A stretch of 64,000 bases of DNA, taken from positions 187,240,001 through 187,304,000 of the forward strand of contig OX597814.1 of the NCBI GenBank assembly GCA_951406725.2, in the 5' to 3' direction. Source of the DNA: Octopus vulgaris. Lineage: Eukaryota. This document shows, in pieces, positions 37,139 to 64,000 of the stretch; the stretch's first letter is position 1; every line of letters starts with the position of its first letter. The notes beneath the pieces are model-generated. The model worked only from the letters and a program-made list of their open reading frames with translations. It was not told the origin of the DNA and ran no database searches. Position numbers and translations under genes: made by a program.

Positions 37139-37372
37139 TATTTCTTATTTGCCCACAAGGGGCTAAAGATAGAGGGGACAAATAAGGATAGACAAAGGGA
37201 TTAAGTCGATTACATCGACCTCAGTGTGTAACTGGTACTTAATTTATCGACCCCGAAAGGAGGAAAGGCAAAGTCAACCTCAGCGGAATTTGAACTCAGA
37301 ACCTAACAGCAGACAAAATACCGCTAAACACTTTGCCCGGTGTGCTAACGATTCTGCCAGCTTGCTTCCTTA
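37139..37372 (-). mobile_element. Family B SINE with 13-bp TSD (ctgttggcattct)
   Basis: Direct repeats at ~37126 and ~37377. Confidence 0.8.
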
Positions 37373-38227: not shown

Positions 38228-38261
<34 letters not shown>

Positions 38262-38438
38262 GCTGCTGCTGCTGCTGCTGTTGCTGTTGTTGTTGTTGCT
38301 GCTGCATCGGTGGCTGTCCACCAGGTGGCCCACCGGCCATATTTTCATTAATATGACTTAACTGTCCTGGAAAATCTGGAGGTCGGCCTTGAAAATTCCC
38401 ACTTCCATCATTGTAGTTACTACCTGTGAATGGTGCTC
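37828..38438 (-). CDS. ZMIZ1: ZMIZ large exon: Pro-rich C-terminal region with Q30HQ4, ending DLNFDPAAIIDGEGQGQESLD
   Basis: atttcag / GAT|gtatgt, 611 nt, frame consistent with both neighbours. Confidence 0.93.
38200..38304 (-). repeat. Coding CAG/CAA repeat (Q30-H-Q4)
   Basis: Direct codon count. Confidence 0.95.
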
Positions 38439-38966
38439 CTGAAATAAATAAATTAATATATTCCAGATATCATGTACCACAAATTCATTATATTTCATTT
38501 TACTTCAAAGCACAGTGCATTTAAAGCAGCGATAATTTATTTTCTCTCTTCAAATGAAATATTATATCTATATAAAATATTACTGCTCTTGCTAAGAACA
38601 GTTTCTGGAAGTCACTGAAGAATTTAAACCACTGAGACAATCTAGATCTGACATTAACTTTGATATCTAAATAGTTCAAAGTACTGTATGTTTCTTTTTT
38701 CATTCCTGTAGATATTATTTGTTATCAATAAAGGGGCTTTAGGAGAATAATTTAAATCAAAAAGTGAAAAGCAACAGGAATGACAGAAAAGATTAATATG
38801 ACTTCCTTCAATTCTGATGCACAATATTCTGCATTTACCATATTGGAACTTCTATCTCAATTAACAAAATTATGAGATAAAGAAAGAGAAGAAATTTATT
38901 TTACAACCTAAACCTTTTGAAATATATACTTTAAAATAAAATCGAATCAATGCTAAAGATTTCTAC

Positions 38967-39104
38967 CTTGAGAGGCAGGAGGCAAGGGATAGGGAGAATG
39001 CTGGCGAGCATTTGGACCAAATTCCCATGAATTCATAGTTGGTAAGGGCATACTTGATGGAGACATGGCTTTCATCCAGCGACTGTTACCACCACTGCAT
39101 TGTT
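38967..39104 (-). CDS. ZMIZ1: ZMIZ exon (EQCSGGNSRWMKAMSPSSMPLPTMNSWE...PPASQ), not in the ORF track
   Basis: Open frame, KxMSPxxMxxP motif, cccttcag / G|gtagaa, phase 1-1. Confidence 0.9.
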
Positions 39105-39202
39105 CTGAAGGGGGAACAAAAACATTTTTTTCTTAGTAAGAATTCTAGAATGGCTGCCAAAATTAGCAAAGTAGAAAATAACTGGATGAAATCAAAATTT
39201 AC

Positions 39203-39363
39203 CATTTTCATCAGGTTCTTGTTTCACGGCTGTCTTTAATGGTACAGGTTTCCAGCTTGCAGTCTGGTCAATAGTAACTTCTTCAAAATCTGTCTGAGCC
39301 AAATTATTGAGAACCGCCCAAATATACTGGTCAATTTCAAGACCTTCCAGTAAAGCTGTTTTG
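39203..39363 (-). CDS. ZMIZ1: ZMIZ exon ([19 protein letters not shown]...VKQEPDEN)
   Basis: Conserved post-RING block; ttttcag / G|gtaaat; contains a VKQE SUMO-consensus motif. Confidence 0.96.
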
Positions 39364-39402
39364 CTGAAAATGACCAAAAATAATTTTTGTTCAGATTCTA
39401 TA

Positions 39403-39456
<54 letters not shown>

Positions 39457-40149
39457 TACATACATACATACAGAAACATTAGCATAACACATAATAAATA
39501 CTACAAAAAGAAACACATAAAACAAATATCAAAGACATTAAAATACTACCTAAAAGATTGCTAATGTTGCACCATTATCACATTAACTTGTAAGTAATCT
39601 AGTGTTGCAGTAAAGTAAATATTAATCTTTTTAAATACATTTTGTATCATCAAGAATTGTTGGCAAATCAATCTAATTCTATAGCAAGTTGAGCCAAAAG
39701 AATCATACTTTTCTATACATAGATGGACAGAACAATATGCACTCACTCACACATACAGACACACACAAAAAGATGCATTAATGGTTTGACATTGTCATTC
39801 GAGTTCGTTATATACCTACATTACATTTATCGAGGTTAAAAGTACTTTGTATTTTCTATGTATTATTTGGCAAAATGCCTTATAATTTTAGAATAAAAGC
39901 AGCTATTCATTTTTGCTCCTTCCTATGAGATAGAGTAATCTCAATGTTCATATAACTAAAACAAAATGCTGATCAATAACTTAGCAAATCAAATATTTTG
40001 TTAAAAGATGAGAAAATTCAGGACTAATTTACATTCGTTGCATAGTAATAAGTATGGGGAGTGTGGGAAGTTTTATGTAGTATCTATAAAATAAGAAGAA
40101 AAGCAAACATTAATTTGCTAATCTTTGAAGATAGAAAATATTTTACTTA

Positions 40150-40269
<120 letters not shown>

Positions 40270-40512
40270 TCAACAAGATTATATATATATAAAGGATCAC
40301 AATTTCTTCTACTCTCATATACTACATATCCCATTAATCCCATTACATTTTGGCATAATTTCCTGATAACTTTGATCTCCAAGAAGCTGCCCACCTCTCT
40401 ACCCAACACCAAGGAAAGATACCAGTTAGAAGCTAAATTCTGCTCTCCTAAATCCAAGTACAAATCAGTAAAGAGATTCATAAAACCTGCTGGTATGTAG
40501 TATAAAATATAA

Positions 40513-40629
40513 CTCCATGCTAGCATGGGTTGGACGGTTCAACCGGGGATCTGGGAAGCCAGGAGCCTGGTGCAGCCCTCTGGCTTCCCAGATCCCCGGT
40601 CGAACCGTCCAACCCATGCTAGCATGGAG
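40513..40629. repeat. Near-perfect inverted repeat (50-bp arms, 17-nt loop)
   Basis: 40513-40562 vs 40580-40629, one mismatch. Confidence 0.95.
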
Positions 40630-41623
40630 AACGGATGTTAAACAATGATGATGATGATGATGAATAAATAATAAAAACTAAGTGTCGCTAATAGATGTTA
40701 ATTTTCATGATACACAAAAAAAAAAAAAAATAACTTCAGATGATTTAACAAGGCACGCAAGGCCAATGAGAGGATTCGTAGAAGAAAACATAATGATGCT
40801 ACATACTCATACACACACACATGCAAATGCATGTGTGCACCCACGTGTGTTTATATTTGCAATTGCTTACAACGGGTGTTGTTGTCCTAGCGTTTACTAT
40901 ACTCTGTAAAGTGGGTGGCAGCAGGAAGGGCATCCTGCCATAGAAACCATGCCAAAACAGACAAGTGGAGCCTGGTGCAGCTCTCCAGCTGGTCAGTTCC
41001 AATCAAGCCATCCAACCCATGCCAGCAAGGAAGATAGATGTTAAATGTAAAGTGTGGAGGAGGAGGACGTGGATGAAGGACATCTATCTATAACAATGCC
41101 TTAAATAACAGTTGTTCAACTAATACAAACATGGAAAAAAAGATAAAACGAATGAATGAATCCATAACTAGCAGGAATTTTATGCATCAAATAGTTTAGA
41201 AAGTGATGGTCATGTATTTAAGAAGTTTGCTTGAAAACAATGTGGTTCGTTTCCTCTACATAGCACTTTGCTAAGAGTCTTCAATTACCCACTGCTATAT
41301 GATTGAAATTTAATACGGGGAAACTGGAAATATGACTGTAGGAAGCCTGATGTGCGTGTGTGTGTGTGTGTGTGTGTGCACGCGCATGTGTACAGGTGTC
41401 TCCACAATGACACCAAATTTCTCTTACAAACTATTAATCAACCTGAGGTTATACAACAAGACACTTGCCAAAGTGCCATGCAGTGGGATTGAACTTAGAA
41501 CCATGTGGCTGCAAATTGAATTTCTTAACCATACAGCTACACCTGCACTTGTGTGTGTAGCATCATTATATGTTTTCTTCTACCGATCCTCCTTGTGTGC
41601 TATATTGTTAAATCAACTGTATG

Positions 41624-41855
41624 AAGGCGGTGAGCTGGCAGAATCGTTAGCATGCTGGGCGAAATGCTTAACAATATTTCGTCTGCCGCTACGTTCTGAG
41701 TTCAAATTCCTCCGAGGTCGACTTTGCCTTTCATCCTTTCGGGGTCGATTAAATAAGTACCAGTTACGCACTGGGGTCGATATAATCGATTTAATCCGTG
41801 GGTCTGTCTTTGTTTTCCCCCTCTATGTTTAGCCCCTTGTGGATAGTAAAGAAAT
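41624..41855 (+). mobile_element. Family B SINE, full-length
   Basis: GGCGGTGAGCTGGCAGAA head, B box, Meta-like core. Confidence 0.85.
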
Positions 41856-42800
41856 AGAATGTGTGTGTGTGTGCATGTAACAAGTGAGCAGACATGGGAT
41901 AGCTAGGTCCCTTTAGCTCTGGGGAGGACACAGCAACCTCTCTAGTGCTGACCCCCCCCCCCCGCATACACACAACCTAGTATACTCAGTAATGTGGCTG
42001 GTGTTAGGAAAGACATCCAGTTATAAAAGCCAAACCAAAATTGAAACTTGAGTGAGATATGGTTCCCCAACTCGTCTTGAACAGTACCTCTGAACATCCA
42101 CTGGTTTCGACTGTGGCCACCCATCCAACCCACACTAGCAGGGGAGCATAAAACAACAATATGTATGTAAGCAGTGTAAGTGTGCATGTGCATGCATGCA
42201 CACACACATATATGCACACTCATGAATTCTGAATAGTCCCCATCTCTCAAATTTCATTCACAAGGCTTTTGTCAACAAAACATAATTGCAGAAGACACCT
42301 GCTGCAGCTATAGAACAAGGAGGTCAAACCCAGCGTCACGTGGTTTGAAAGTGAATTTTTTAACCACATGGCCATAACTGTACTCATGTATGTATGTTGT
42401 TGTAAGTATTAATGAAAAATCAAGTATTGCTTTTTGTGCAGACTTCAAATTCAATTTGGCAAAGCAATGGCCACAAATAGTTTTTACACAAAGAGATAGA
42501 TTAGCATCTTATTTTTAGCTTACATAACTGCAATATAATATTAATGCTTTCATTGGCAGCCACATTTTTTCAAAGACATATATTTATCTACAAAAACACA
42601 GTGTAAATGATCAATGTTTTTTCTCCTATGTCAATGAAAAATTCATATTTAGAAAAAAAAAGAGAGATGTTATAATATGTGTTTATTGAAATGGGAATAG
42701 TGTAATACATTTGTCGCATGAAAATACACTTAGAACTTCAAACAGTTTCTGTATTTAGCAGGAAAAGTGTTAAGTTAGGAAAATAGACAAGAAAGCTTAC

Positions 42801-42955
42801 CTGGATGTGTTTGCAATCATGTCCTCGAGCTGGCAAGGTTATCCTTCGGAACGTGATTGGACATTTCAAAGACACTTTCATAGCTGTCTGCTCTACACCA
42901 TCTTCTCCATTCAAAGTATTACCCCCAGCTGGAACATTGCTAAAGTTTCTTTTGA
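42801..42955 (-). CDS. ZMIZ1: ZMIZ exon, first half of the SP-RING/MIZ finger ([25 protein letters not shown])
   Basis: SP-RING signature; ttctcag / CAG|gtaagc. Confidence 0.98.
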
Positions 42956-43756
42956 CTGAGAATTCAAGAAGAAATGATTTCATTAGATGAAATAAACACA
43001 GCGTTCAAAGTAAGAAATGTCATAATATTTAACAATTAGGGCTAAAAAGCCTCTACTTTTTATTTTTTTAATTGTAAATTTAGTCTGCATTTTCAGTATC
43101 TCTCTTCTTGAGTTAATAAAGAACCTTATAATCAAGATAGTTCTGAAATATCTATTCTATTTCTATTCTTCTTAAATTATTAAACAGCTGGCCAACTAAG
43201 CTTAATCTGTTTTTATTATTTTCAAAATAATTACAGCAGTCTTTTGTAACCTGTTTAAAAGTGGTGTTTATTTTATTTTCCTGAGTAGCATAGCAATTGA
43301 CAAATAAAAGTGCAAAAAACTATGGAAATATTCACAGCAGGAGAGCTGGGCACAAGGAAACATGAGTAATTTTAAAACTCTGTTAAAATGTGGACAAATC
43401 TGATAAGTCATTGTGTAATATTATACGTAAAATGTTTAGTGCTAAAACAAAGATGAGGATTAAAGCTTTAGTTATACTGTAATTTGTTTCAGGAAATATC
43501 TTCCTTCCCAGCTTCTTCAAGTAAAACATAAGTAATTCACTAATGCTTCCTTTAGTTTACATTTTCCATCACAAATTATTCATTCTTTAACGTTTATAAA
43601 TAATAATACTTCATTTAAGATAAATGGAAGTGATAGGACTATGACAATATTGATATATTGGTGTAAATAACTTTAACTTAACTCATTTGTAAAATAAAGG
43701 AAAACAATATTATTAAAAGTCAGGTCTTAACAGCTGAAACTAGAACTAAGCTTTTA

Positions 43757-44026
<270 letters not shown>

Positions 44027-44089
44027 TTAGCATATAAACATCGATAAATAACTACTGCAAAAAAAATCATTGAAAACTTTATCCAATGG

Positions 44090-44762
44090 ACATCATCATC
44101 ATCATTTAACATTTGTTTTTCATGCTGGCATGAGTTGGACGGTTCGACTGGGGTCTGGGAAGCCAGGAGGCTGCACCAGGTTCCAGTCTGATCTGGCAGT
44201 GTTTCTACAGCTGGATGCCCTTCCTAATGCCAACCACTCTGAGAGTGTAGTGTGTGCATTTTTTTTTATGTGCCACCAGCACAGGAGCCAGAGGGGGCTG
44301 GCATTGACCATGATCGGATGGTGCTTTTTATGTGCCACCGGCACGGAAGCCGGTCAGGGCGGCGCTGGCATCAGCCACGTTTGGATGGGGCTTTTTACGT
44401 GCCTCTGGCACGGGGATCACAACTACAATTTCGATTTGATTTGATATTGCTAATGTTGATGTACTTGACTCGATAGGTTTCCTCAAGCACGGCATGTCGC
44501 CCTACGATCCAAGGTACTTTTGAGTGGGCTGATTATACGACACTGGTGTCGGTTACAGCTGTGAACTCATTTTATTTGTTGGGTCTTCTCAGTCACAGCA
44601 TATCTCCAGAGGTCTCGGTCTTTTGTCTTTGCCTCTGTGAAGCCCAACATTCAAAGGCCATGCTTCACCACCTCATCCCATGTCTTCCTGGGTCTCCCTC
44701 TACCCTGGATTCCTTCCACTGTTTGGGAATGGCAATTTCTTTAACACAGCTCTTATCCTGTG
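44090..44762 (-). mobile_element. RTE 3'-end element (family C) in a ZMIZ intron
   Basis: Colinear with 11000-11690. Confidence 0.85.
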
Positions 44763-45064
44763 TTTGAAAAGACAACCTCTCCTCCAGTACAGGTATCATA
44801 GTCACACCTGGATTTACTTTGTGTTACTATAGTAGAGGGAATTGGTAATGGCAGCAGTAACCCATTTAGATCAAAGAAACATATAAAACGATATAAATTT
44901 AGCCAACATCTTTTTTCACTTCATTAATTCCAACAAATTACACTTTAATGCATGAAACGAAAATTTGCAACATTATTCTTATAATTCCATGATTGATTAT
45001 ACCAATAGAAAAAAATTTAAGCAATGAATATAGAAGTAAACTGAAACTATAACAGGATACTTAC

Positions 45065-45275
45065 ACAACAGCATGCTGTTACTGTTATTTGTATGGTGTT
45101 TCGGCCTGGTTGGCATACATCCTTCAGATAGAGGGGCTTATGAGAAGTCTTATTTTCTCCTCGCTCTATATTAAGGGGGGTTGCATTGACACTGACCGTG
45201 ACAGATGCTGGCCAATTTGTATTCATTTGCCTATCTTCATGATGAAAACATTTCAGCTGCAGTTCAAGGTCAGAT
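45065..45275 (-). CDS. ZMIZ1: ZMIZ exon ([22 protein letters not shown]...[10 protein letters not shown])
   Basis: Highly conserved ZMIZ block; ctttttag / TGT|gtaagt. Confidence 0.97.
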
Positions 45276-45633
45276 CTAAAAAGACAATACCAGTAAAATT
45301 TGATAAAACTTTTATGATAATTTCTCACTCCACCTCTCATCATTTCAGTGCAACAAACAATATAACTCATGAATAAATTTAATTAAAATATTTGTATTGC
45401 AAAATTACCTAGTTGAAATGCAGACCAATGTATTATAAATTCTTACTGTTTTAAACTCATTAACCATTAAAACAAGCTTTCACTACACCTTCCTTTAGTT
45501 TGTAGCAGCACAAATACAGACAGAACCCCCCCTCCTCTCTCACTCATACACACACAATAGCTGACCAACAAATATTACAGAAATTAACATTAAGGATAAT
45601 GCATAGAAGAAATGAAAAAATGATGCTACTAAC

Positions 45634-45769
45634 CGCCACATAAGAGTTTGATAAACAGATTCCCGTAAGTGAAAGGCATGGTTGCTCACTGCTAAATTGT
45701 GTTCCAATCGGAACGGATGAAGTACAGTGCCATCTCGTACAGGAAACGTTAATCGGAGTTCATCATTCT
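45634..45769 (-). CDS. ZMIZ1: ZMIZ exon ([46 protein letters not shown]), not in the ORF track
   Basis: Manual translation matches the conserved [24 protein letters not shown] block; cttttcag / CG|gttagt. Confidence 0.96.
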
Positions 45770-47386
45770 CTGAAAAGACAAAGAAAATTTATTGAAGGAT
45801 GCATGTTTTTGCCTCTAATTTCATATCTATCTATCTATATACATATACACAAACAATGAGTGTCTTTCTGTCTCCATCCACCAAATCATCTCACAAGCTT
45901 TTGGTCAGCCAGAAGCACTTGCCCAAGGTACCACACAGTAAGACTGAGTCCCAAATTATACTGTTTGGAAGCAAGCTTCTTAGCCACATAACCATTCCTA
46001 TGTCTATTGCCATACCTCTACACACACATCTGTAGGTGATGGGAATGGAGTAGGTACTTATATACTACATATTTCAAAGGATACATCAAATGAATATTAC
46101 GTTACTTTAAGTGCTACACAGATGTTCAGTGTTCCTTCACCTTGGGCACTTTTCTACCTGTTGCTTATTATATTTGCATGCACACAAACACACAGAGGAA
46201 AAACTCTAAAGTTAAAGACACTAATTCATAACTTCTCACTATGAATTGGTGAAAGTGTTGTTTCTTTGCTAAAACATTATATTTATTTTTGTCTACATAC
46301 ACACCAAATTATCTTGATAGCTCTCACACTGTTCTATAGTGAAGTCCTGAAGACACAGGGATTCAATTAATAATGAATTGGGTTCGACTGGTAGTTGCAC
46401 AAAACAAAAACTAAACAATACATAACAGCTAGATAAATTGACAACTTGGCCTTAATAATCATACAACATTTTATTTTGTAATATGCTAACACATCTCAAA
46501 TAGAGGTGTGATCTTTTATTTTTTAACCCTTTTGTTACCAACCCGGCTGAAACCGGCTCTGGCTCTGTAGTACAAATGTTTTGTTTTCATAAGTTTTGAA
46601 TTAAAATCTTCCACCAAACCATGGTCACAATTTAACCAAGTTATTTTACTAAATTCTTTGTTTATATTTAAAATAATTGAAAGAAACACAGGATCTCAAA
46701 ATAAATACAGTAACGAAAGGGTTAAATGGAAACAGCACATGCCTACTACAAGCCAATGAGGTCATAATTTTGCTAGAGCTGGAAAAATTAATCAAGTTAA
46801 ATGTCAGGTGAAAAATTAATTTCACTCATTAAAAGCATCCTTGTCATTTTAGCAACTGATCATAAACATTTGACATCTCTGAAGGAGGACTTGGTTCAAT
46901 TTCAGCAAAGGATGTCAAACCATACATCATTTTAGCCCATGTTACACAACTGCTTTTACAATTATCATCAGTTTGTTCAATTTCCAAAAAACACTGTGAT
47001 ATGCATGACCTCACATCTTGTAACACTGTTTATAGCACTTAACAAGTATTTTATTGGGGCAGACTGTTAACCCAACGCATTTTCTTTTTTTTTGTTGTTG
47101 TGGTGTGTGTGTGTGTGTATGTTTTGGAAGAAGAGGTTGAACACAGTAGTGCAAGCTAACAAAATATCTGTCAATGTTACAATGCTTCTGTTGTTAATTA
47201 CAGTCAGCTGTACTACATTATGGTACCTACTTACAATAGTTATATTAGATCATGGCTACAGTAGGGCAACAGCAATAGAATACAAATTCTTATCCTTTTG
47301 CCTGTTTGTCCAGTACATTACTAAATCAACTATTTACACCCCACCCACAAACACAATCCTTTATCCTTTAAATGATAAGACTTTAC

Positions 47387-47537
47387 CTTTCTTAATAGGT
47401 AATGTTGGTTTCAAATCTTGAAACTGTGGTTTTATATCAGCACCTGGGGATACATATGGGGGTACTGCACTGCCTGGGGTCATTGGTGGTGTTGGGTTAC
47501 CAGGGAGTGGTGAGTGCTGGTAGTTCATGTTAGTTTG
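47387..47537 (-). CDS. ZMIZ1: ZMIZ exon ([17 protein letters not shown]...DIKP)
   Basis: Conserved [15 protein letters not shown] motif; tgtttcag / G|gtaaag. Confidence 0.95.
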
Positions 47538-47601
47538 CTGAAACAAAGAAAATACAAAAGTTGTAAAAAAAAAATTCAATTACAAGATATTTTAATATTT
47601 T

Positions 47602-47776
<175 letters not shown>

Positions 47777-48378
47777 CATAATATAAAAATAGCAAGCAGC
47801 AACCTTTTCATTCATCCGTCCATCCATGCGTCTGTCAATCATGAACTGAGTATCTTGGAAGTAGATTTGACCTACTTTTAGATGTCTATCAGTTGCTTGG
47901 GCCTCTAACCCAGGAGGCATTGCACTAACCTCTCCTCTTATCTGGAAGAGGAGCAAAAAAGTAAACAATGATCTCTTTACAACAATGAGCTCTACTTTTC
48001 TAAACTATGATATTTATCAATTAGTTAGACATATAATTCATAAAATAGCAATTCGAATTAAATACAATAATAATAATAATAATAAAAATAAATTTTTTTT
48101 TTTAAGATTGTAAAATTCACTTGTATATATTTTTTCCTTACAGAAAAAATATTTACCGTTAAAAAAATTTTTTTTTTATATATAACCGTTACTATGAATA
48201 GAGTAACTGCATGGGTATGTGTGTGTTTGTGAATGTATGTGTGTACGTGTAACTATGTACACATAAGTAACAGCCGTTTATAACTAGGCAAAATGTTTTT
48301 ACAATTAGATTTTTCTTTTTCAAGAAAATCAATGACTGTCTGTTTTTCTTCTTTTTCTAATTTCAGTCAGCTCCAACA

Positions 48379-48436
<58 letters not shown>

Positions 48437-49905
48437 GAGCCCAATGCTCGAACCACTGAGCCATTTGCCTTCATGTGTGTTTGTGTGTGTATCCTCTCAA
48501 AGAAATTCCAACTGAGCAGTGAGTGTTCAGTACCTCGACCTGCTCAAAAAGTTATTTCTCATATTCGAAATCCACATCTCTTTTAAATGTGACATGTTTT
48601 CATGTAAAAGTGGATGTTTATTTTCACAACAAGCATTTATAACTGCAATTTATAATATAATCACTTTCTAATAAATACATACATACTTACATTCATACAT
48701 ACATGTGTGTGTGTAAGCAAAATAAAATTTGATTCATTTCAAATTCTGGTTTTTCACAACTGTCACTTAATAGTATATTACTGTTTTTATGTCTCACCCC
48801 ACTTTTAAGTTAACGTGCAATGTCACAATTTTGCTCCAGAATAAGGCACATACACTATGCATAACTGAATGCTAGCAAGGCCTGCTCCTATTTCATGATG
48901 AGTTGTTAGAACTAGGAAATAAACAGCTATGCTGTTGTACATACAAAGAAAAAGAAAAAAAGAGGGAAAGGGTAGTTGCTCTAATAAGATCTATACTATT
49001 CATGGTTGTAAGGAATAACAGAGATTGACATAACTAAAACAAATCAATATTAATTCATAATCTGTAAGAAAGTAGCACTGATAAAATATCACCCTCAAAT
49101 TAGGGATGTTTCTATGATATTTTGCATCAGTCGTCTGACTGCAATTTCAGGTGTCAACTGGGAATGAGACTTAGTCTTTTTATTCCAAAAGAGTATTCCT
49201 TTGCACATAACATGCACCTTCTTGTTGTTGTTCCTCTTCATCACCTTTTTTATCATCCACTTTTTCATTGAGCCAGATTTGCTATAACCAGATTTCCTGA
49301 AGAAATGCATGTCAGTGAGTGTGCGTGAGAAAGAGTGAGAAATAGCTAGATAGAGAGAGATAGATAGATAGATAGACAGATAGAGAGGTAGAAAGAGAGA
49401 GACACTAAGTATCATGTAATAGTTACAAATGAGTGCCACTATCATATAAGTTTTATATAAAGGTATTTATACTTGGCCATTGTACGACAGTGATTTTCAG
49501 AAGCAAAGATTTTTGGCCCCACCCAATTCTTGACTTGGGGTGTGTTTTATTTACCGACAAATATATTATGTATATCAGTGCAACAATATAAACACGTCTC
49601 CATCCCATATTTATGTATATAAATAAATGAGGGAAGACTCAGATGATGGTAAAACAGAATTCAGATAAATCATAAACCGTCAACCAGTTTGCTGCAAAGC
49701 AACAGTGCTGACAAATCATTTGCCTAATCTCATTCATATATACACACACGTTATTCAATCACACATACATATTGTAGACATTTACAATTGATGGATAGTG
49801 GTGAGAAAAGTGGAAAGGTAGTGAAAACAAACTGCACAAAGCCCAAACCAGTTAACCAGATAAAGTTACAAAGAAAACCAGTTATAAAGTTGTAGTAAAA
49901 CCTAC

Positions 49906-50151
49906 CTGAAAATTTTGCTGTGTAGGGAACTGGTTGGGAAAACCAGGGGGTTGGGGTTGTCTAGTGGAGAATTGATTTGGCCCCATATATATATTTTGAC
50001 CATTGGAATAAGGTGGGGTAGGTCCATTAGGGCGAATGCCTTGCTGTGGTGGCCCTACATAGTTTGGTGAGGGCAAGGGTTGTTGAGTTGGAGGGTACTG
50101 TGCCTTGCCCGGGTGCTGTGGTTGGCTCCCATATGCTGTTGGTGCACCATA
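49906..50151 (-). CDS. ZMIZ1: ZMIZ exon, Pro-rich (YGAPTAYGSQPQHPGK...QPLPSPNY...QQNFQ)
   Basis: cctacag / CAG|gtagg, 246 nt, phase 0-0. Confidence 0.9.
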
Positions 50152-50785
50152 CTGTAGGTGAAAATAGATAGTGATTAAGCATAAACTAAGGATGGTGAAG
50201 GATTGCAGTATATTGGAATCTTACTTAAAACGTGGATCTGTGGAAAGCAGATGTCATTGTACATTATTATGCAATTATAATCTATTACATAATCATTTAC
50301 TTTATGTATCACACACACACGAACATATATATATATATATATATATATATCGTGTGTGTGTATGTTATGTATAACATCTACTGGAAACATTTCCTCTATT
50401 GAACACAAGGAACCTTCAATGTTTCAGTGATTTTTTTTTAAATAATTAAAATTTTTAATTAGAAACTAAAGTAGTCACATAAATTAAATGTAAAATATAT
50501 GTTATAATTTGTCTAATTTTAAAATATATTCTGTTTTAATTATTGACAAAAGATTAATTACTGATATAATTTGTAAATATATATATTATATAATTTTTAT
50601 TTACCACTATATATATATGCCCTAGAGTATATATATTAAGGTGGATATAATTTCGATGCTTATGAGAATGCAAACTTTTGTGCAATAATTACAATAAAGC
50701 TTGTGAATTATGAGTGTTACTATAAGCAAGATTAGTACTAAGATTGCAGGTGAAAGAAGCTCATCAACAAGCAAACATTCCTTAC

Positions 50786-51007
50786 CTGAGTGCCATTTGG
50801 ATATTGCTGTTGTCGTTTCTGGAGAATTTGCTGTGGACTTGGGTAGGGTGAAGCTCTCCTTTGATGATTGTACATAGTAGGCATAGTTGGCTTGCTTGGC
50901 ATCCCTCCTGGACCCGGCGGTGGACCTTGAGCCAGAGTCATACTTCCTGGAGGTGGACGTTGTTGAGGAATTCCATACTGATTATTAAAATGTTGCTGAC
51001 TTTGCAT
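50786..51007 (-). CDS. ZMIZ1: ZMIZ exon, Pro/Gln-rich (MQSQQHFNNQY...PNGTQ)
   Basis: ttttcag / CAG|gtaagg, 222 nt, phase 0-0. Confidence 0.9.
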
Positions 51008-52242
51008 CTGAAAATTAATGTGTAAAGAAAGAGAGAATTTAATTAATCTCAATTTAGGTATATCATCATCATCATCATTGTTTAACATCCGTTTTCCGTG
51101 CTAGCACGGGTTGGACGGTTCGACTGGGGTCTGGGAAGCCAGGAGGCTGCACCAGGCTCCAGTCTGATCTGGCAGTGTTTCTACAGCTGGATGCTCTTCC
51201 TAATGCCAACCACTCCGTGAGTGTAGTGGGTATATATATATATGTATATATATATAAACATATGTATAAACACATAAAAAGCTCTGCCTACTATATGGGG
51301 TGGCTGGTGTTAGGAAGGGCTTCCAGTTGTAAAAGCCATGCCAAAGCAGACACAGTACCCTGGTGGAGTCTTCTACCTGGCAGGCACCAGTCAAACCGTC
51401 CAACCTATGCCAGCATGAAAGACATACAGTAAATAATGATGATGATGATGATGATATCATGTGACTGACTGCTGTTATCATTAGTTGTTCTATCAAATGA
51501 ATCAGAAAACTAGTTGTTACTAGATCACCAATGTTTAAATTTGTTTGACTGCCTGTGTTTTAAGCTAATTAATTTAAGTAATAAACATCTGTGTATCGGT
51601 AGAACTGATGAAGAAAGAAATATCTACCGACAATATCTTGATAGTCATCTGATGCACCAGGCTACTTGTTTTTAAACGATGGAATCATTTTTAATTTATT
51701 GAGAAAGTTGGACTGCAACAACTTAGCATTTTTCTTCCTGTAACTCTAAATAGCTCTACCGCTTCTTCATCACCATCATTTATATGTACAATAGTTGGCC
51801 ACTGTACATATGCAATGAAGTAAGACTAACACACCAATTTAGCCTTCTATCTGTGAGCAACATAACTTTATTTGTCTTCAATAAAAGTTTAAAATCTTAG
51901 GTGTTAATAGGACAATAGTGCCAGAGTGAATGGCAAAGATATTATGAAGATATCAGATATTTTATGGTAGAATAATTAGGCTTTGATCAAATAAAGTGCA
52001 AAGCATGTAATCTGCAGTTTTGTTGTTTGTGTGATTTTTGCAAAGAAACTCATAAGAAACAGAATTACTGAAGAGTGTTACGTACTCATTAAAGGTGTTC
52101 ATTTATATCTTATTTAAATGAGCAAGTTGCAAAAATAATACAAACTAGCTTGTTAGAGAAAGTTTAAGTGATCTTTATATATATATTGTTTTTGGATTTG
52201 GTTTGCAAGATTCTTTATGTGAGTTCATGTGTTGAAGCATAT

Positions 52243-53944: not shown

Positions 53945-53945
53945 T

Positions 53946-55272: not shown

Positions 55273-55513
55273 CTGTACTTGGGGACCATACTGATTGTTC
55301 ATGTTCATATTCATGTTCATATTCATCTGTTGCTGCTGGTTCTGTTGCTCTTGGATAGCTACCATGCTGGCTGTGGCTGTGGCTGTAGCTGTGGCAGTGG
55401 CAGCCGCTGCCACCAGAGCAGCAGACAGCGCTGCTGGAGCAGCTGGGTATTCATTATTGCCGGACATCTGGGAAGGGTTAGAACCTGGAGTATTTGGAGT
55501 TGGAGGGTAACCA
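55273..55513 (-). CDS. ZMIZ1: ZMIZ exon with the alanine-rich motif AALVAAAATATATATATASMVAIQE
   Basis: ttttcag acceptor, CAG|gtatgg donor; the Ala/Thr tract is a hallmark of ZMIZ1/2. Confidence 0.95.
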
Positions 55514-56446
55514 CTGAAAAGCAAAAATAGATTTTAAGGCTTCAGAAGAGCAAAGAAAAATAATTCTATTATATTCCAATACAAAAGCTAATTCCACAAA
55601 TGTTGACCATATTCCTTATCTAGAGAAAGATTTAAAAAAAAAACTATATGTATATTTAGAGACTCAGGAGTTTGAATGAACTTTACACACACGAACACAC
55701 AAGCACAAAAATTAATGAAACCCATGATTTTATTCTTTTATGCTCAATGACATAAGTGTTCCTAAGATTTCTGATGGTGGGAGAGATGTCTGAAAAATAT
55801 TCAAGCACCACTGTAGGTCATAGATTTGCTAGTTAATAGAAAGGAAACAGGCATTTATACATAAAGCAATTTGTTCACTTTTAGTGATGGCCATGATGAT
55901 GATGATAATGATGAATTTGATGATAAAAATATTTCTTTTTGCTATAGGCACAAGGCCTGAAATTTGGGAGAAAAGTGGAGTAAGTCAACCCCAGAACACA
56001 ATCGGTACTTATTTCATCAACCCTGAAAGGATGAAAGATGAACTTGAAATGTTAAGAGCAGAACAAATATCGCAAAGTGTTTTTTCTCCAATGCTCTAAT
56101 GATTCCACCAGCAATTTTAGGGGAGGGAGGGTCAATTACATAGACCCCAGTTTTCAACTAGTATTTATTTTGTCAGCCTCAAAAAGATGAAAAGCAAAGT
56201 CAACTTCAGTGGGATTTGAACTTAGAGCATAAAGAGCCAGAAGAAATGCCACTCAGTATTTTGACAAATGCACCAATGATTCTGCATTAATAACGATAAT
56301 AATAATTTTTTCAAGTCTAGGCACAAGGCCTGCAATTTTAGGGGTGGGGGTTAGTCGATTACATCAACCCTAGTGCTCCACTGGTACTTATTTTCTCAAC
56401 GAAAGGCAAAGTCAACCTCAGTGGAATAATAACGATGATAATAATA

Positions 56447-56612
56447 AGCCATCTACTCGCAATACCAGAAGGCGCACACTCTCCTACCCTGGTGTAATCT
56501 CCATGGATACAGGCATCCAGCAACAGGACCTCCGTAATGCCATGATGGACCGTGAAGTCTGGCATAGCATGGTAAATTCCATTGTCTCGAGCACGGTCGA
56601 ACGATGATGATG
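56447..56612 (+). mobile_element. 3' end of a different RTE-like LINE
   Basis: RRRTLSYP..DTG..DLRNAMMDREVW followed by (GAT)n/(AAT)n tail. Confidence 0.7.
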
Positions 56613-59404
56613 ATAATAATAATAATAATAATAATGATGATGATGATGATGATGGAACTGCAAGAATTCATCGCAGGGTTCTTGAAGCATGACCAGTAAA
56701 ACAAATGTCACCTTAGCCTGCTGGCTGCAGACACTTTCCATCATACCCAGCAATATAAGCTGTGAGATTTAATACAACAACAACAATAATAATAATAATA
56801 TCCTACAGTATGATGAAATACAAACCTAACAATCAAAAGTATAAATAACATTTCATCACATATATTCATCATTAATCTTTCGAAAGAAACAAATGCACTT
56901 TATGTTTCAAGACTAGAAGCTTGTCTAACAGCAAGCCAAACAATACTGAAATAAATCATTAAATATAATTTAAGGGAAATATATATATAGCTCTGTATTT
57001 GAATAAATAGTTCAGACTAGACTGAAAACTTAATCCTTTGAGAAAACATTTCAAAGTTCAACACTTCTTAGGATTTATTGCAGAGTTAAAAAAACAATAT
57101 ATTTAGCATAAAATAAATAGTTCTCAAATATAAGCTAATTGGAAATGTAAAGAATTCAATGATTTGATGTTAGTGCCTTGAAAGTTTTATGTCTACAAAA
57201 GTCATTTCTATTCTACAATTAAACACTACTTACAACTTCATTAAAAAACACATTCACTTCATTTTATACATTGAAAATTAGAAATTAAATGAAAGCAGCC
57301 TATTCATAACGTACTGCATTTTCAAATAATTTTCAAACATACACACACACATTACATATCTGCAAATACTAACTAATTACTACTGGGAAATATTAACTAG
57401 CATTATACCTTACACAATAATTTAAACCATTAATTATATATGATAAAATCAATTTTATAAGAGACTCAAATTTTTAATACTTATATCACATACACACACT
57501 GAGATATGTATACACATACATACACATATGTTGATTCACTTTTTCAAGAGTAATTTAAACATGTTTAAAAAGTTTTCAGACTAAAATTTAACAAATTTTT
57601 CAAATGTTGCTAAATTCAAGATAATGTAATTTGAATGAATTTTTATATTTTAAATTAGTCTGCAGGCAATGATTTACAATGAATAAATAAACAAATTTAC
57701 AGTTAGTAGACATTTCATGCTTTTCAGTTTTGCTAACTTCCTTATGATAAACAGAAAATACTAAAAACATATCATGCACAAGAAAGAGAGATAAAGAGGG
57801 GAAAAAGACAGAGAGAGAGAGATATAGAGAGTTGGGGAGGGAAAGCTGATTAAATCAAGAAAATGTAACACTGGAATTATTTAAGTGGGTGGATATGATC
57901 TAGTAAGATGGATTGAGTTTTCCTGGTTTGGAAGACCCCACCCTAAAAATGATCTAAAAATATTTAGAGGTATCAAATGTGATAAATGGTAAAGGAATAC
58001 TTCAGTTGTAGTGTTAGTGGATGCATATGGCTCTAAACTTGTGTTTGGAATGAAATTCTACTGCATTCAGTGGCATAAGCAAGGACAAATTAAATTTATA
58101 ATCTAAATAGAAAATATTGCTCTCGCCATGACTTGTTTGAACAAAAGTGGCCATTGAGCCACAAAACGTGTCCCAGTTATATACACTCCTGGGTATGAAA
58201 ATGTCACCACACCCATTGTGTATGTAGAAGTGACCTATTTTTTTTCTCTAAAATACTATTGATTAGGAGTGGGACCAAATGCAATCATGCAGAACAATCC
58301 ACTCTGCACTAGTACAGAAGGTTAGTGTATTCAAAATGATAGGCATGATGAGTAGGCAGAAATTGAACAAAACACCTTTAATCTAAATGGGTTTCATTAA
58401 TCTATAAATAATGAAATATAAAGGTCAACGAAATGTAGCATTCTACCTAAGTTTCCCGGATATTTTTGCCACAGTAACATAAAGTATAACATTGATTTTT
58501 AATTATTTGATTTTCTATATTAGTAATAGTGAAGAAAAGCTAAAATGTGAAAACAAGAAGCAATTTAATAATTTTATTTTATCCCAAATAAAGTATAAAA
58601 TCACGGGTCAGTATGGTATTGTATTTAGCAGGATGGTGGGAATTTAACGTGTAGAATAACTAAGTCCAACAAACACAATACATAGCATCAGATTTCTTAT
58701 AAATCATCAACTGCTGCATAAGTAAAATGCAAGCAGGAAATGTGATGTTAGCTAATTTCCTGACAAACAGACAACTTTACAATAATTCCTGCAGCAGAAT
58801 TCATGTCTTGTTATGTACAGAGTTTGGAATGATTTTAGATCTCAGAGTGAGGTTAACACTCTTTCGTAATTGAAGGAGGGGAAAAAAAAAAGAGCATGTT
58901 TGTCATGTTAACAGGAATGATCATGACACCATGTAAATGAGAATTTACAACACTAACGACTTAAAATTTTAGGAACATGAAAACCATTGGAAATATTAAT
59001 ACTGATTTAATCACATACCATTACAGTATATATACTTAGAGCATGAATTTGAATATTAGTTATGTGTATATAGTTATTATCCTAATTTAAATAAGCTAAA
59101 TATTTAAGCTGGTAATTATTTAAAATGAAGGATGCTAACAATGTCGTATGTATATATAGAGAGAGATTTAACATATACTAGTTGTAAATAACTATAACAG
59201 GTGCATTATAAGTGTGTTAGTAATAATAAAACAATTAAAACAAAACATGGAAAATTAATATAAAGTCCAATAGATGAGAACTAGTGAAAGTATACAAAAT
59301 TAACTGTTTGACTAGAAATTGAATAAATGCAAGAAAACATATTTTGCAACTATCACAATGTTCTCAAATATTGGAAGAGATAACATCTAGGCACTATTAC
59401 TCAC

Positions 59405-59503
59405 GCAACAGATAGGGCTGACGGTGAAGGGGCAGGGTAGTCATGATTACCCGGCAGAGGGAGTGGGGTCGACCCCGGGGTATTCGGTGTGGGTGGATAA
59501 CCA
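59405..59503 (-). CDS. ZMIZ1: ZMIZ-family gene, 99-nt phase 2-2 exon (GYPPTPNTPGSTPLPLPGNHDYPAPSPSALSVA), paralogous to the next exon
   Basis: Acceptor tttttcgttttag, donor GC|gtgagt, open frame; first 11 aa identical to the exon at 55513. Confidence 0.8.
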
Positions 59504-60849
59504 CTAAAACGAAAAATAAATAAGACAAAAGCAAATTAGGATTTCCCAAACAAATCAAAGTAAAAATGTCAATTAATATTGAGAATTGGTAAAAACAAAA
59601 AAAAAAAAAAAAAAAAAAAAATTCAATTAGCAACTAAAATCACAAGCATTGGAGTTATATAAGTAGAAAATTGCTTTAAAAATTAAAAATTAACACATCT
59701 GATATCCCCTAATAGAGTTTAGGATCTTCATAAAATCAATTCATGTTTTTTTTTAAATTAAGCTATGGATTAAAAATCACTTTGATTTTTGTGTATAAAG
59801 TTTTAAATTGATATGTTGTAAAACTATTTTAGAATTAAGTGTAACAGATGAAACTACTTTAACAGGTTTAGATCACTAATTCTAAAACTTAGAGGTAATC
59901 AGGAATGTTTACATTATCTTAAATATGAATTAATACATTCCATATATCTATCATTCCAGTTGATCCAATAGTAACAAGCTACTGAACCAGTTGAAGTAAT
60001 TATAATACCCTACTATGGGAATGAGTAATTTTTGTGTCATTCATTAGAATATATATATGGAATTCTAACTAGGGCATATTCGCAACTACATAAGTATCTT
60101 TATGAGAGAACATTGAACGAAGTACAATAAATAATATATGAAAATTAAAATTTCATGAATAAACAGGATTAATAAATTACACAAAATGAAATTGATTTCA
60201 TTAATACATCAGTATTTGAAGAAACTTCACAAATGCAATGTAATCATCCCCCATACACACATTCACACACACAAAGAAGCAGTTATCTTATATATAAGAA
60301 ATACAAATACAATTAAAAAACACAAACATTATTATAAAAAAAAGCAATTTCCTGAATATTGGGAAAAAAAAGTACATAACATTTAATGAATGGTTGTTAA
60401 ATATGACTACGTGAGATTTTTTCAGTTGGCCTAAAAATTAGGTTTTTCTTTAGCAATTATAATAATTTAGTAACAATCATATATGAGAGAACTGCCAGCA
60501 ATGAAATCTGATTTCACAATGTAATAAACAACAACAATGAAGCAATGCATATAATTTATAAAACAAATTCAATTATGATTGTTAATGAGCTAGGTAACAA
60601 ACTGTGTCTTTTGTTCTTCAATGAGTGTGTATTTATGTGTATGTATGCATATGAGTCCCTGAAGAAAACAGGTTAGTAGGGTTTATCCGTCTCATTGTTA
60701 AAATGTTTTGACCTTTCCCATGAAAGACTTGCTAAAAAATACGCAAATACTTGTTTTCAAAAGGTTTAATTCTATCTGAAAAGAGAGTTTGTTCTTTACA
60801 AATCATTCACTATTCATTAAAAAATACTTTTTATATATATGTATTGCAG

Positions 60850-61880
60850 TTGTTGTCTTACCAACATCAACTTTGCCTTTAATCTTTTCAGGGCTGTTGA
60901 AATAAAGTATGTTAAGTATGACCCCCACCACCAACTGATATTGACTAACCTCCTCCCACAGAATTTCAGGCCTTGTGCCTATAATGGAAACCACATTTAT
61001 TATCATTATTATTATTAAGGTGGTGAGCTGGTAGACTTGTTGGCACACCGGATGAAATGCTTAGGAGTATTTCGCCCAGCATTACATTCTGAGTTCAAAT
61101 TTTGCCGAGGCTGACTTTGCCTTTCATCTCTTCGGGAGGGGGGGTCAATAAATTAAGTACCAGTTGAGTACTGGGGTCAATGTAATTGACTAGTCCCCTC
61201 TCCACAAATTTCAGGCCTTGTGCCTATAATAGAAAGGATTATCGTTATTATAATTTTGGCAGAATCATTAGCACATTGCAAAAAATGCTTTGCGATATTT
61301 ATGTTCTGGCCTTTGCATTCCAAGTTCAAATCCTTTCAGGGTTGATAAAAAGGTATCAGCCAAGTACTGAAATTGATGGTTAGAACCAGCCAGCTTCTCA
61401 AAATTTCTGGTTTTGTGCCTAAGTTAGAGACAACAACAACTATCATAACTAATATTTTGGTAGAAAAGGCTTAATGGTATTTGTTCTGGTTCTTTACATA
61501 CTGAGTTTAAATTCTACCAACATCCAGTTTGGCTTTCATCCTCTTGGAGCTGATAAAACAAAGTGCCAATCAAGTACTGGGTTGATGGTATCAACTAATC
61601 CTCTCCTTTAAATATCAGGCCTTGTGTCTATATTAGAAACAATTCTTCTTCCTATTACTATTATACTAGGAAGGCATCAAACTGGCAGAACTGTTAGCAC
61701 ACTGGACAAAATGTTTAGCTGCATTTCACCTGTATTTACATTCTGAGTTCAAATTCTGCCATGGTTGACTTTACCTTTCATCCTTCTGGGGTCCATAAAA
61801 ATAAGTACCAGTTGATCACTGGCATCAGTGCAGTTGACTAATTCCCTCCCCCTATTATAGGCTTTGTGCCTATAATAATA
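60850..61880 (+). mobile_element. Head-to-tail array of about five family B SINEs
   Basis: Repeated heads (e.g. 61019, 61255, 61670) and GGCCTTGTGCCTATAAT tails. Confidence 0.8.
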
Positions 61881-63393
61881 AAAGATTACTGTTATTATTA
61901 CAATAAAAACAATTTGGTATTTTAGATTTAAGTAAACTAAGATGTTAAAATGCTTTACTTTAGCCACCTGCACAAGTGTGGGTGTATTTCTACCGTGTTA
62001 GACTCAGCTGAGTAGTTTTGCAAATTCTTTTATTGGCATAAATTTTAAGGTTGGATTGCATTAGTCACATGTCCTTCATAATGTTATCAATACAATATTG
62101 AAATTGTAGTCTTTGTAGCACAAGTGTTTTCTGACAGGTATACTGACACAAATAGCATAATGTCCTTCTTAACTGAAACCTCTATTAGCACAATGAAAAT
62201 ATGCCTATCAAATAATTTTTTCAAATAACAAAAAAACGTTTCTATATGTGTATGTGTGTGTATATATATATATATAATAACAAAATAATAAATAAGACAT
62301 ATGCATATAGATGTAGGCATGTACATATATGTATGTATGTATATATGCATATGCTTATATATTATTTTGTTATATGATTGAACGCCACGCATCCACTTCC
62401 AAGTATATATACACACACACAGACTCATATACATGCAATATACTTGTATACACATCTTCACATAAATGCATGTGTGTGTGCGCGCACAAGCACACATACA
62501 TACAAATAAATAAATACAGTCATTAATAAATACAGCTGAATAGGAATGTTATGAAATAATATAGTTTATACAGAGAAAGAATAAGGAAAACTGTCACCAT
62601 GAGGCACAGGTGTTCATAAAGCTTAGTTCTTCTGAGTGCTGCAGTGAAAAATGTGTTCTTTCTCGCTTCTAATAATATACACTTATCGGTCCCACCCCAC
62701 CATCCAGCCCACCCACTCTCTTATGCAAGCATAACAGATTAATTTTGATTACAACCTGAATCCTCAATTCATTCAAAATAATGATAATAAAAAATTTGTA
62801 CACACACACACACTCATAGAGTCTACCTATTATGCATAAATACATTGCATTTTTTTGCTGGCAAAGACAAGGAGTGGGAAAATGCAAATTAATTCTCTCA
62901 ACAATATAAACCACATTACTGTCCTGTTTTCCGAGGCAAATAGTAATAGTATGAAGGTTATTTACTACTATACAATAAGACAAATTATATATACATTTTC
63001 CCAACTAACTCAGTAGTTAGTAATTATCAGAAATGAATGAAATAAGCATATTTTGAAATATTTCCAATCAAAAGAAGGATAGCAATTAAAGTTAATTGTA
63101 AAAATTAAGTAAATCATCTTTTTCTTCTTTTTTTTTAAAAATTTAATTACTCCACTAGGTCTGTTTTAATGTCAATTAATCTTTCTCTTAAATGATATTA
63201 AAATACACTTTATTATTTTTTTAAAGGGAAACAAGTGCCATCAACTGTCACCAAAATCACAGGTGACCAATTAATGAGAATAGGTTAAATAAAAGTTAAT
63301 TAAAGTTCCCAATATTTGTTGTTGATTAAAATAATGATGAACAACCTGAAAAAAAAAATCTAAAACCTTACCAAGTTTTACTTTATTATTAGG

Positions 63394-63462
<69 letters not shown>

Positions 63463-64000
63463 AATTATTTAAGCAGGCTTCCAAAGATCCCAGCCTTGAT
63501 CCTTTGGGGAGTATCCTTCAGACTACCATCACTGCCCACTGCTCTTGCAATTACTTAGTCTGCCTACAACTATTACTACTGCTACTACAATAATTTTTTG
63601 TTTGTTTGGTTATCTATCCAATGTAGTTTTTCAGAAGGATTATAACGTGCATAGACTACAAAGAGACATTTAGTGCAATATAAAAGCAAATCACTTCCGT
63701 GTGCATAACTATACACAGCAGTCATTCAAACCAACATGGAGAAAGACTGAGTTGAAATACAGTGAGTAGTCAGAATATGATTGAAGTTTAAACATGATGT
63801 TGATGCATGTAAGAATAAGGATTTTTAACATGGTCTAAGTAATAACTTGTTGGGAAAAGACAATCCAGTGAAGGAACATGATGAAATGATTTTGACTGAA
63901 AACAGGTGTGGGACTAAAATTACATACAAGTTCTCCTTTCTTTAGTACATTCATGTTGGTTGTCTAACCAGATAAAAGCAAAGTTGACTTTGGCAAGGTT

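What the first reader, a model, noticed from the sequence alone, without database searches (positions are those of the whole stretch)
55273..59503. Tandemly duplicated ZMIZ exon: a frame-symmetric 99-nt paralog of the Ala-rich exon
Seen: exon 59405-59503 encodes GYPPTPNTPGSTPLPLPGNHDYPAPSPSALSVA and exon 55273-55513 begins GYPPTPNTPGSNPSQMSGNNEYPAAPAALSAA. The first 11 aa are identical while most codons differ synonymously (TAT/TAC, CCA/CCT, CCC/CCA, ACA/ACT, CCG/CCA, GGG/GGT, TCG/TCT), which indicates purifying selection after an old duplication. The upstream copy has its own donor just before the Ala/Thr tract and is phase 2-2, so it can be included or skipped in frame. Established: the Ala-rich region is a variant hotspot in human ZMIZ1 neurodevelopmental disorder. 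Inference: a lineage-specific cassette that doubles a T-P phospho-motif module next to that region.
Basis: partly seen in the sequence, partly recalled or inferred. Interest (0 to 1): 0.75.

Follow-up and report, generated by a model that had tools for sequence, protein, structure and literature searches.

The report
Duplicated optional exon in mollusc ZMIZ
This animal's ZMIZ transcription co-activator gene carries an old partial copy of one of its own exons that is spliced in or left out of the RNA without breaking the reading frame, likely giving the protein one or two copies of a short, probably phosphorylated motif; the event is real and apparently unreported, but of a familiar kind.

Summary
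Confirmed and extended. Exon A (59405-59503, minus strand, 99 nt, AG/GT, phase 2-2) is a partial tandem duplicate of the 5' end of the Ala/Thr-tract exon B (55273-55513) of a ZMIZ gene: 21 of 31 aligned residues identical, dN about 0.20, dS about 1.4-1.7. It is a true cassette. The A-to-B splice stands in 5 of 6 RNA-like contig sets laid, the skip junction (upstream exon U to B) in 2 of 6, and both in run X3 (depth 32.1 against 19.9, sum 52.0 against 51.8 for B). None of 100 ZMIZ proteins of 600 aa or more from other animals has two strict copies of the motif, and two outgroup genomic contigs lack it in that intron. No cephalopod-named sequence was returned, so the age of the duplication is open. 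The copy leaves out the Ala/Thr tract that is the human disease hotspot. It adds four S/T-P sites and one loose FBXW7-type TPxxTP that fails the refined consensus. Tissue regulation and function are untested. New member of a known kind; interest moderate to low.

The parts
59405..59503 (-). Exon A: 99-nt phase 2-2 cassette exon, partial duplicate of the 5' end of exon B; adds 33 residues when included
   Evidence: Splice sites and frame; A-to-B joint in contigs of X1, X3, X9, X10 and X7; skipped in X3 and X12
59464..59481 (-). TPGSTP in exon A: matches the liberal [TS]P..[TS]P pattern for FBXW7/Cdc4 degrons; B has TPGSNP and does not match
   Evidence: Pattern test with the patterns of PMC8955265; fails that paper's optimal and core patterns
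55273..55513 (-). Exon B: ancestral 241-nt phase 2-0 exon with the YPPTPNTP module, the Ala/Thr tract and a Gln/Met/Asn-rich tail; present in all 6 runs laid
   Evidence: same acceptor and phase in outgroup contigs L014-L016
55369..55416 (-). Ala/Thr tract of exon B (counterpart of the human alanine-rich region); not duplicated in A
   Evidence: Translation; conserved in 95 of 100 long homologues by pattern; no trace downstream of A's donor
55514..59404 (-). Intron A-B, 3891 nt, GT..AG
   Evidence: Joint 55513/59405 with CT..AC ends on the plus strand in 4 of 4 runs
59504..64000 (-). Window part of intron U-A (7866 nt in all; exon U lies outside the window at G000:C1:187307370-187307636)
   Evidence: tblastn map of the gene, exon U sequence; loose ends in X3 and X12 match U's 3' end
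47478..47492 (-). TPPMT core in a downstream exon: counterpart of the tested human ZMIZ1 FBXW7 phosphodegron; context for what exon A could add
   Evidence: human peptide listed as positive in supplement S1 of PMC8955265; the motif is in 100 of 100 long homologues
36437..51030 (-). Downstream coding exons of the ZMIZ gene (GBD-like domain, MIZ/SP-RING finger, C-terminal tail); approximate outer bounds
   Evidence: tblastn; Pfam PF25527 and PF02891 above their cut-offs

Best explanation
Exon A is a partial tandem copy of the ZMIZ Ala/Thr-tract exon that is spliced in or skipped in frame, and it likely works as an optional second copy of the conserved YPPTPNTP proline-directed motif in the protein's disordered region. 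Shown: duplication, frame symmetry, both splice forms, excess of synonymous change. Inferred origin: the ancestral exon B is phase 2-0, so a whole copy could not be added without a frameshift; the copy survived as a shortened exon with a new phase-2 donor ahead of the Ala/Thr tract, which made it additive rather than mutually exclusive. Inferred splicing: the long form dominates in most samples laid and the ancestral short form remains, the ratio probably differing by tissue or condition. Inferred function: the long form carries six S/T-P sites in this stretch instead of two, which would tune MAPK/CDK-type phosphorylation and partner binding (possibly turnover) without touching the TPR, Ala-rich, GBD-like or MIZ parts.
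For: Geometry and identity. Selection: 21 of 31 residues identical but only 5 of those 21 codons identical; pN 0.176, pS 0.63-0.67, dN/dS about 0.12-0.14. Inclusion: joint 55513/59405 in X1, X3, X9, X10 at depths 232, 32, 101, 410, with A and B on one unbranched 1213-nt contig in X9 and X10, and A's end as the loose end in X7: 5 of 6 runs, 4 studies. Skipping: a 54-nt contig at depth 19.9 in X3 and a 2296-nt contig at depth 23.7 in X12 continue from B into U's 3' end: 2 of 6 runs, 2 studies. In X3 the contig lengths (54 and 153) equal those expected for skip and inclusion paths, and depths add up (32.1 + 19.9 = 52.0 against 51.8). Ancestral state: one strict copy in 91 of 100 long homologues and never two; B's acceptor and phase are the same in three unnamed animal contigs, two of which show the whole upstream intron without a copy. 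The best-kept part of A is the motif that is best kept across molluscs and nemerteans (31 distinct modules). S/T-P sites: 4 in A, 2 in B. Human ZMIZ1 levels respond to MAPK inhibitors through FBXW7 (PMC8955265, passages and sections).
Against: No tissue labels, so regulation is not shown; X12 is another species label (organism C) and could lack or have silenced exon A. Contig depth is a crude measure and minor forms are pruned, so 62% inclusion in X3 is rough, and skipping in X1, X7, X9, X10 is not excluded (X1: 232 for the joint against 288 for B). The runs are RNA by the tool's guess and no DNA run was laid as control. dN/dS is pairwise and cannot be split by branch: a neutral copy would keep 21 of 31 residues with P 0.002 at 0.5 substitutions per site, but with P 0.09 at 0.3 and 0.45 at 0.2. 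No protein-level evidence for either form, and no evidence that these sites are phosphorylated. The motif has no Pfam match and no known partner.
Confidence: 0.6

Rival explanations
1. Exon A is a splice-controlled stability switch: its N-to-T difference creates TPGSTP, a second MAPK-primed FBXW7-type phosphodegron, so the long isoform would be degraded faster.
For: A matches the liberal [TS]P..[TS]P pattern and B does not. Human ZMIZ1 is a tested FBXW7 substrate, and a splice-dependent degron in a 34-residue insert is described for KLF4 (PMC8955265, passages). Glycine at P+2 was tolerated, though weaker, in that paper's model degron (section 2.2).
Against: The motif fails the paper's optimal, TPP.[STED] and TPxP[STED] patterns. 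It departs at two positions (Asn at P-1, Gly at P+2), which the paper calls mostly deleterious, and only 5 of 22 liberal-pattern motifs tested positive. The gene already has the counterpart of the tested degron in a downstream exon, as do 100 of 100 long homologues. The same liberal match occurs in 2 of 31 single-copy outgroup modules, so it may be drift.
Confidence: 0.12
2. Exon A is an essentially constitutive extension of a disordered linker kept by weak selection; the skip form is leaky splicing at a suboptimal donor with no regulated role.
For: Inclusion is the only form seen in 4 of 6 runs. The exon side of the donor (TGC) departs from the usual consensus (consensus recalled). Most duplicated exons end up constitutive (PMC8373072, Introduction).
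Against: The skip form is about 38% of depth in X3 and the only form in X12, too much for noise; X3 and X7, from one study and one species label, differ.
Confidence: 0.2
3. Exon A is a decaying copy under little or no current selection, tolerated because it keeps the frame.
For: Pairwise dN/dS cannot assign constraint to A's branch; if most synonymous change fell on B's branch the identity is unremarkable (P 0.09-0.45 at 0.2-0.3 substitutions per site). Codons 12-24 have pN 0.29.
Against: Total dS is about 1.4-1.7, and an even split gives P at or below 0.002. The flanking introns have lost all similarity while the exon, its frame and its splice sites persist. A shows 0 differences in a run with a second species label (X9).
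Confidence: 0.06
4. A and B are mutually exclusive homologous exons of the Dscam type.
For: They are tandem homologous exons with the same acceptor phase.
Against: A is spliced directly to B in 5 of 6 runs. A ends in phase 2 and B in phase 0, so A cannot replace B in frame. A junction from A to the exon after B was not looked for directly (that exon lay outside both stretches laid).
Confidence: 0.02

Closest known systems
Alternatively spliced tandem exon duplications (Kondrashov and Koonin; Letunic et al.; the 236 human tandem exon duplication-derived substitutions, as described in PMC8373072)
   Same: Adjacent homologous exons in one gene, kept under purifying selection, giving alternative isoforms.
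   Different: Those catalogued events are substitutions (one exon or the other). Here the copy is partial, has a donor that B lacks, and is an in-frame insertion used together with its parent exon.
ZMIZ1/ZMIZ2 family (Zimp10/Zimp7; PIAS-like co-activators)
   Same: Same gene architecture: Ala/Thr tract, proline-rich disordered region, GBD-like domain PF25527, MIZ finger PF02891, and the NPTPPxTP degron motif.
   Different: No other protein examined (0 of 100 long homologues) has two strict YPPTP.TP modules; three Tubulanus isoforms have two loosely similar motifs. The human isoforms described in the passages read are N-terminal truncations and a circular RNA (PMC13687641), not this cassette.
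Splice-dependent FBXW7 phosphodegron of KLF4 isoform 1, and the ZMIZ1 T517/T521 degron (PMC8955265)
   Same: A short in-frame insert in a disordered region of a transcription regulator carrying a [TS]P..[TS]P pattern.
   Different: The KLF4 insert comes from intron retention and is a tested degron; exon A's motif is only a liberal match, fails the refined patterns, and is untested.

Membership tests
ZMIZ family gene | MIZ/SP-RING zinc finger (PF02891) | tested here: met
   Exon 42801-42956 scores 37 bits against a cut-off of 33.5
ZMIZ family gene | ZMIZ GBD-like domain (PF25527) | tested here: met
   Exons 45065-45283 and 45633-45770 score 120.8 and 65.8 bits, cut-off 26
ZMIZ family gene | Ala/Thr-rich tract | tested here: met
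   Exon B translation and hits to named mollusc ZMIZ proteins
ZMIZ family gene | N-terminal TPR domain (PF18028) | tested here: inconclusive
   An upstream exon matches residues 119-164 of P0005 at 80% identity, overlapping the end of its PF18028 hit (42-132), but that 45-residue exon alone gives no Pfam hit; exons further upstream were not located
Tandem exon duplicate | Adjacent homologous exons on the same strand, similarity above chance, own splice sites | tested here: met
Cassette (skipped) exon | Both inclusion and skipping junctions exist in transcripts | tested here: met
   A-to-B in 5 of 6 runs, U-to-B in 2 of 6, both in X3. The U-to-A joint is inferred from the 153-nt contig length and 2 shared bases, not displayed
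Cassette (skipped) exon | Frame kept on inclusion and on skipping | tested here: met
   99 nt, phase 2-2; U ends and B begins in phase 2
Tissue-regulated cassette exon | Reproducible change of inclusion by tissue or stage | not testable with these tools
   Runs are coded, without tissue labels, and held only as contigs; samples do differ
Mutually exclusive homologous exons (Dscam type) | The two exons never occur together in one transcript | tested here: not met
   Direct A-to-B splice
FBXW7 phosphodegron | Liberal [TS]P..[TS]P pattern | tested here: met
   TPGSTP in A, none in B
FBXW7 phosphodegron | Refined consensus (optimal pattern, or TPP.[STED] / TPxP[STED] core) of PMC8955265 | tested here: not met
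   No match in A
FBXW7 phosphodegron | Phosphorylation-dependent binding and degradation | not testable with these tools
   Needs a binding or degradation assay
Lineage-specific exon | Absent from outgroups | tested here: met
   0 of 100 long homologues with two strict copies; 2 of 2 genomic contigs that show the whole intron lack a copy
Lineage-specific exon | Distribution within cephalopods known | tested here: inconclusive
   No cephalopod-named protein returned; present in runs of coded organisms A and B, not seen in the one run of organism C

The most novel reading that the evidence does not exclude
A cephalopod-specific, tissue-regulated (for instance neural) splice switch that doubles a conserved lophotrochozoan kinase motif and adds a second MAPK-primed FBXW7 degron, setting the dose of a dosage-sensitive neurodevelopmental co-activator by isoform choice.
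Probability: 0.08. Interest if true: 0.65.

Novelty: new member of a known kind. Interest (0 to 1): 0.35.

Why it matters
If the reading holds, it is a clean natural example of how an asymmetric exon can be duplicated and rescued as an additive cassette by gaining a new donor. It also singles out YPPTPNTP, an uncharacterised motif kept across molluscs and nemerteans, as a likely functional short linear motif in ZMIZ, because selection kept exactly that part twice. The two isoforms differ by one 33-residue insert, so the function of that motif can be tested directly. It says little about human ZMIZ1 disease, since the hotspot tract is not the part that was copied.

Tried and rejected
No run was on record as RNA; RNA status rests on the tool's guess and on spliced GT-AG joints. 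Six of the 24 runs listed were laid. Searches for cephalopod ZMIZ proteins gave none: exon B (26 hits, 38 hits), the 44-residue open frame around A (none among 10 candidates), exon U (4 hits), cluster look-ups. P0117 equals B's peptide over 80 residues with different intron-derived residues ahead, but is unnamed and holds no upstream exon. A search of metagenome contigs by exon A's peptide was not possible because it is too short, so conservation of A itself in other genomes stays open; a degenerate motif scan gave 3 contigs, none with two copies; L015 is too short upstream to judge. A score of 43 for A in L016 (shuffle maximum 39) proved to be an out-of-frame reading of part of the U exon. 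No remnant of the Ala/Thr tract after A's donor and no similarity of intron flanks. No TGCATG/GCATG element within 300 bases of A (motif recalled). No letter differences in A or B in the contigs shown, so no sign of recoding there (table 3 was cut). No retrocopy found in the own genome. Literature: no paper for ZMIZ1 + octopus + alternative splicing or cephalopod + alternative splicing + ZMIZ; one unrelated hit for octopus + cassette exon + exon duplication; the library lacks most subscription journals, and public cephalopod gene models could not be seen, so the exon may already be annotated there. Earlier findings of this scan: nothing. Structure prediction was not run: the region is described as disordered (PMC11057416). 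Rejected: mutually exclusive splicing, chance similarity, assembly duplication (the copies differ at 29-30 of 93 aligned bases).
Full report
Observation. Exon A (59405-59503) is 99 nt, with a U-rich acceptor ending TAG and the donor GC|GTGAGT. Exon B (55273-55513) is 241 nt, acceptor CAG, donor CAG|GTATGG. A reads one base, 32 whole codons and two bases, so it is phase 2-2; B is phase 2-0. The first 11 residues are identical and 9 of these 11 codons differ by one synonymous change. The similarity is not chance: local score 68 against 16.8 +/- 2.8 with 0 of 300 shuffles reaching it, 2 motif matches in the window against a mean of 0.00 in 100 shuffles, and only these 2 matches in the whole genome G000.

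The gene. tblastn with 5 homologues on the window plus 100 kb of adjacent genome maps one ZMIZ gene on the minus strand (output partly cut). Pfam confirms the GBD-like domain and the MIZ finger; the N-terminal TPR domain was not confirmed on the one exon tried. The exon before A, called U, lies outside the window (G000:C1:187307370-187307636, 267 nt, phase 2-2); the introns are 7866 nt (U-A) and 3891 nt (A-B). The closest named proteins are from chiton, bivalves and gastropods. That the host is an octopus is my recalled guess from the genome's size and make-up; no call names it.

Splicing. Of 24 runs listed, none is on record as RNA; I laid 6, all held as contigs. On 53100-64000 the joint 55513/59405, with GT-AG ends, stood in 4 of 4 runs (depth 232 in X1, 32 in X3, 101 in X9, 410 in X10); in X9 and X10 a single 1213-nt contig holds all of A and B with 0 differences. 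I then laid 4 runs on B's 5' end alone, where inclusion and skipping leave loose ends at different places. X3 shows both: a 153-nt contig going on into A (depth 32.1) and a 54-nt contig going on into letters that match U's 3' end (depth 19.9), beside B at 51.8. These lengths are those expected for the two paths, and the depths add up, giving about 62% inclusion. X7 and X1 show only the A path; X12, of another species label, shows only the U path on a 2296-nt contig at depth 23.7. In all: inclusion in 5 of 6 runs (4 studies), skipping in 2 of 6 (2 studies). Since organism C matches B at all 121 bases laid while A and B differ heavily at synonymous sites, the duplication should predate that split, so C probably had exon A (inference).

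Selection and origin. With one codon gap, 21 of 31 residues are identical but only 5 of those 21 codons; pN is 0.176 and pS 0.63-0.67 (dN 0.20, dS 1.4-1.7; Fisher p 2.4e-5), while intron flanks and B's 3' part show nothing above shuffles. A neutral copy would keep this much with P 0.002 at 0.5 substitutions per site and 0 of 20000 at 0.7, but 0.09 at 0.3 and 0.45 at 0.2, so constraint on A's own branch is likely but depends on how the divergence is split. Three unnamed animal contigs have B's acceptor, phase and full length including the Ala/Thr tract; the two that show the whole upstream intron hold no copy. So B is the ancestral exon. A whole copy of a phase 2-0 exon could not be added in frame; A's new phase-2 donor before the tract solves that (inference). 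Whether it began as a whole or a partial copy cannot be told.

Distribution. Among 100 homologues of 600 residues or more, 95 passed my pattern for the Ala/Thr tract: 90 have one strict YPPTP.TP module, 1 a diverged single copy, 1 (a spider) none, and 3 (Tubulanus isoforms) two loosely similar motifs. The 5 rows dropped by the pattern have one copy (1) or none (4). None has two strict copies. The set includes annotated isoform series of chiton, abalones, oysters, scallops, mussels, snails and two nemerteans (at most 15 members listed per cluster). No cephalopod-named protein came back, so the node at which A arose is unknown.

What the insert could do. It adds 33 residues to a region described as disordered in human ZMIZ1 (PMC11057416, passages), with 4 S/T-P sites to B's 2. 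The part best kept is the motif that is best kept among 31 distinct outgroup modules, which points to a short linear motif; that it is phosphorylated is inference. Human ZMIZ1 is a MAPK-dependent FBXW7 substrate through T517/T521 (PMC8955265: passages, sections 2.2 and 4.1, supplement rows). That degron's counterpart sits in a downstream exon here and in 100 of 100 long homologues. A's TPGSTP matches the paper's liberal pattern, which B's does not, but fails its refined patterns, and only 5 of 22 liberal matches tested positive there; 2 of 31 single-copy outgroup modules match it too. I therefore rank a second degron as a minor rival and motif dosage as the best reading.

Against what is known. 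The alanine-rich region does carry the highest load of disease variants per residue in human ZMIZ1 (PMC11057416 and PMC12170594, passages), but A stops before that tract. Alternatively spliced tandem exon duplicates are a known class; most duplicates end up constitutive and the catalogued alternative ones are substitutions (PMC8373072, passages and Introduction). This case works like an additive cassette and is not a member of the mutually exclusive kind. A 2026 review's passages on isoforms mention truncations and a circular RNA only (PMC13687641). Searches for this event in print found nothing relevant; public gene models of cephalopods were not visible to me and may already hold the exon. 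PMC12728233 (one passage) was not relevant.

Verdict. A real, transcribed, alternatively spliced partial exon duplicate in a mollusc ZMIZ gene, missing from all outgroups examined; a new member of a known kind. Function and regulation are open. Interest 0.35.

Noticed in passing
window 55273-55279 (minus): Exon B has a possible second donor 6 bases upstream of the one used (CAA|GTACAG|GTATGG), which would remove two residues in frame; contigs of X9 and X10 use 55273.
   Followed up: partly
P0015, P0060, P0061 (Tubulanus polymorphus ZMIZ, about residues 238-290): Two loosely similar Y..PTP..P motifs precede the Ala/Thr tract in all 3 isoforms; possibly an independent doubling of the same module.
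   Followed up: partly
window 47478-47492 (minus): Counterpart of the tested human ZMIZ1 FBXW7 degron, present in 100 of 100 long invertebrate homologues examined, whereas the passage read in PMC8955265 speaks of conservation in vertebrates.
   Followed up: partly
L013:9370-9636 (minus), G000:C1:187307370-187307636: Exon U is itself frame-symmetric (267 nt, phase 2-2), so it could in principle be skipped too; not tested.
   Followed up: no
L016:1400-3120 (minus): In this unnamed animal contig the counterpart of exon U is split by an extra intron that the window's gene and L014 lack.
   Followed up: partly
P0008 and P0009 (Bradybaena similaris): Two ZMIZ genes in this snail; in P0009 both threonines of the module are changed (YSPAPNAP), unlike nearly all other molluscs seen.
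   Followed up: no
window about 38180-38300 (minus): A run of about 34 glutamines in a late ZMIZ exon, much longer than in the homologues aligned.
   Followed up: no
window about 16300-17200, 11450-11760 and 10430-10860 (minus): Broken frames that look like non-LTR retrotransposon reverse transcriptase and a mariner-like transposase remnant (family names recalled, not searched).
   Followed up: no
window 55545-55739: Intron-spanning contigs of X1 and X9 differ from the window by several substitutions and gaps just upstream of exon B, while exons A and B show none in the records listed.
   Followed up: no
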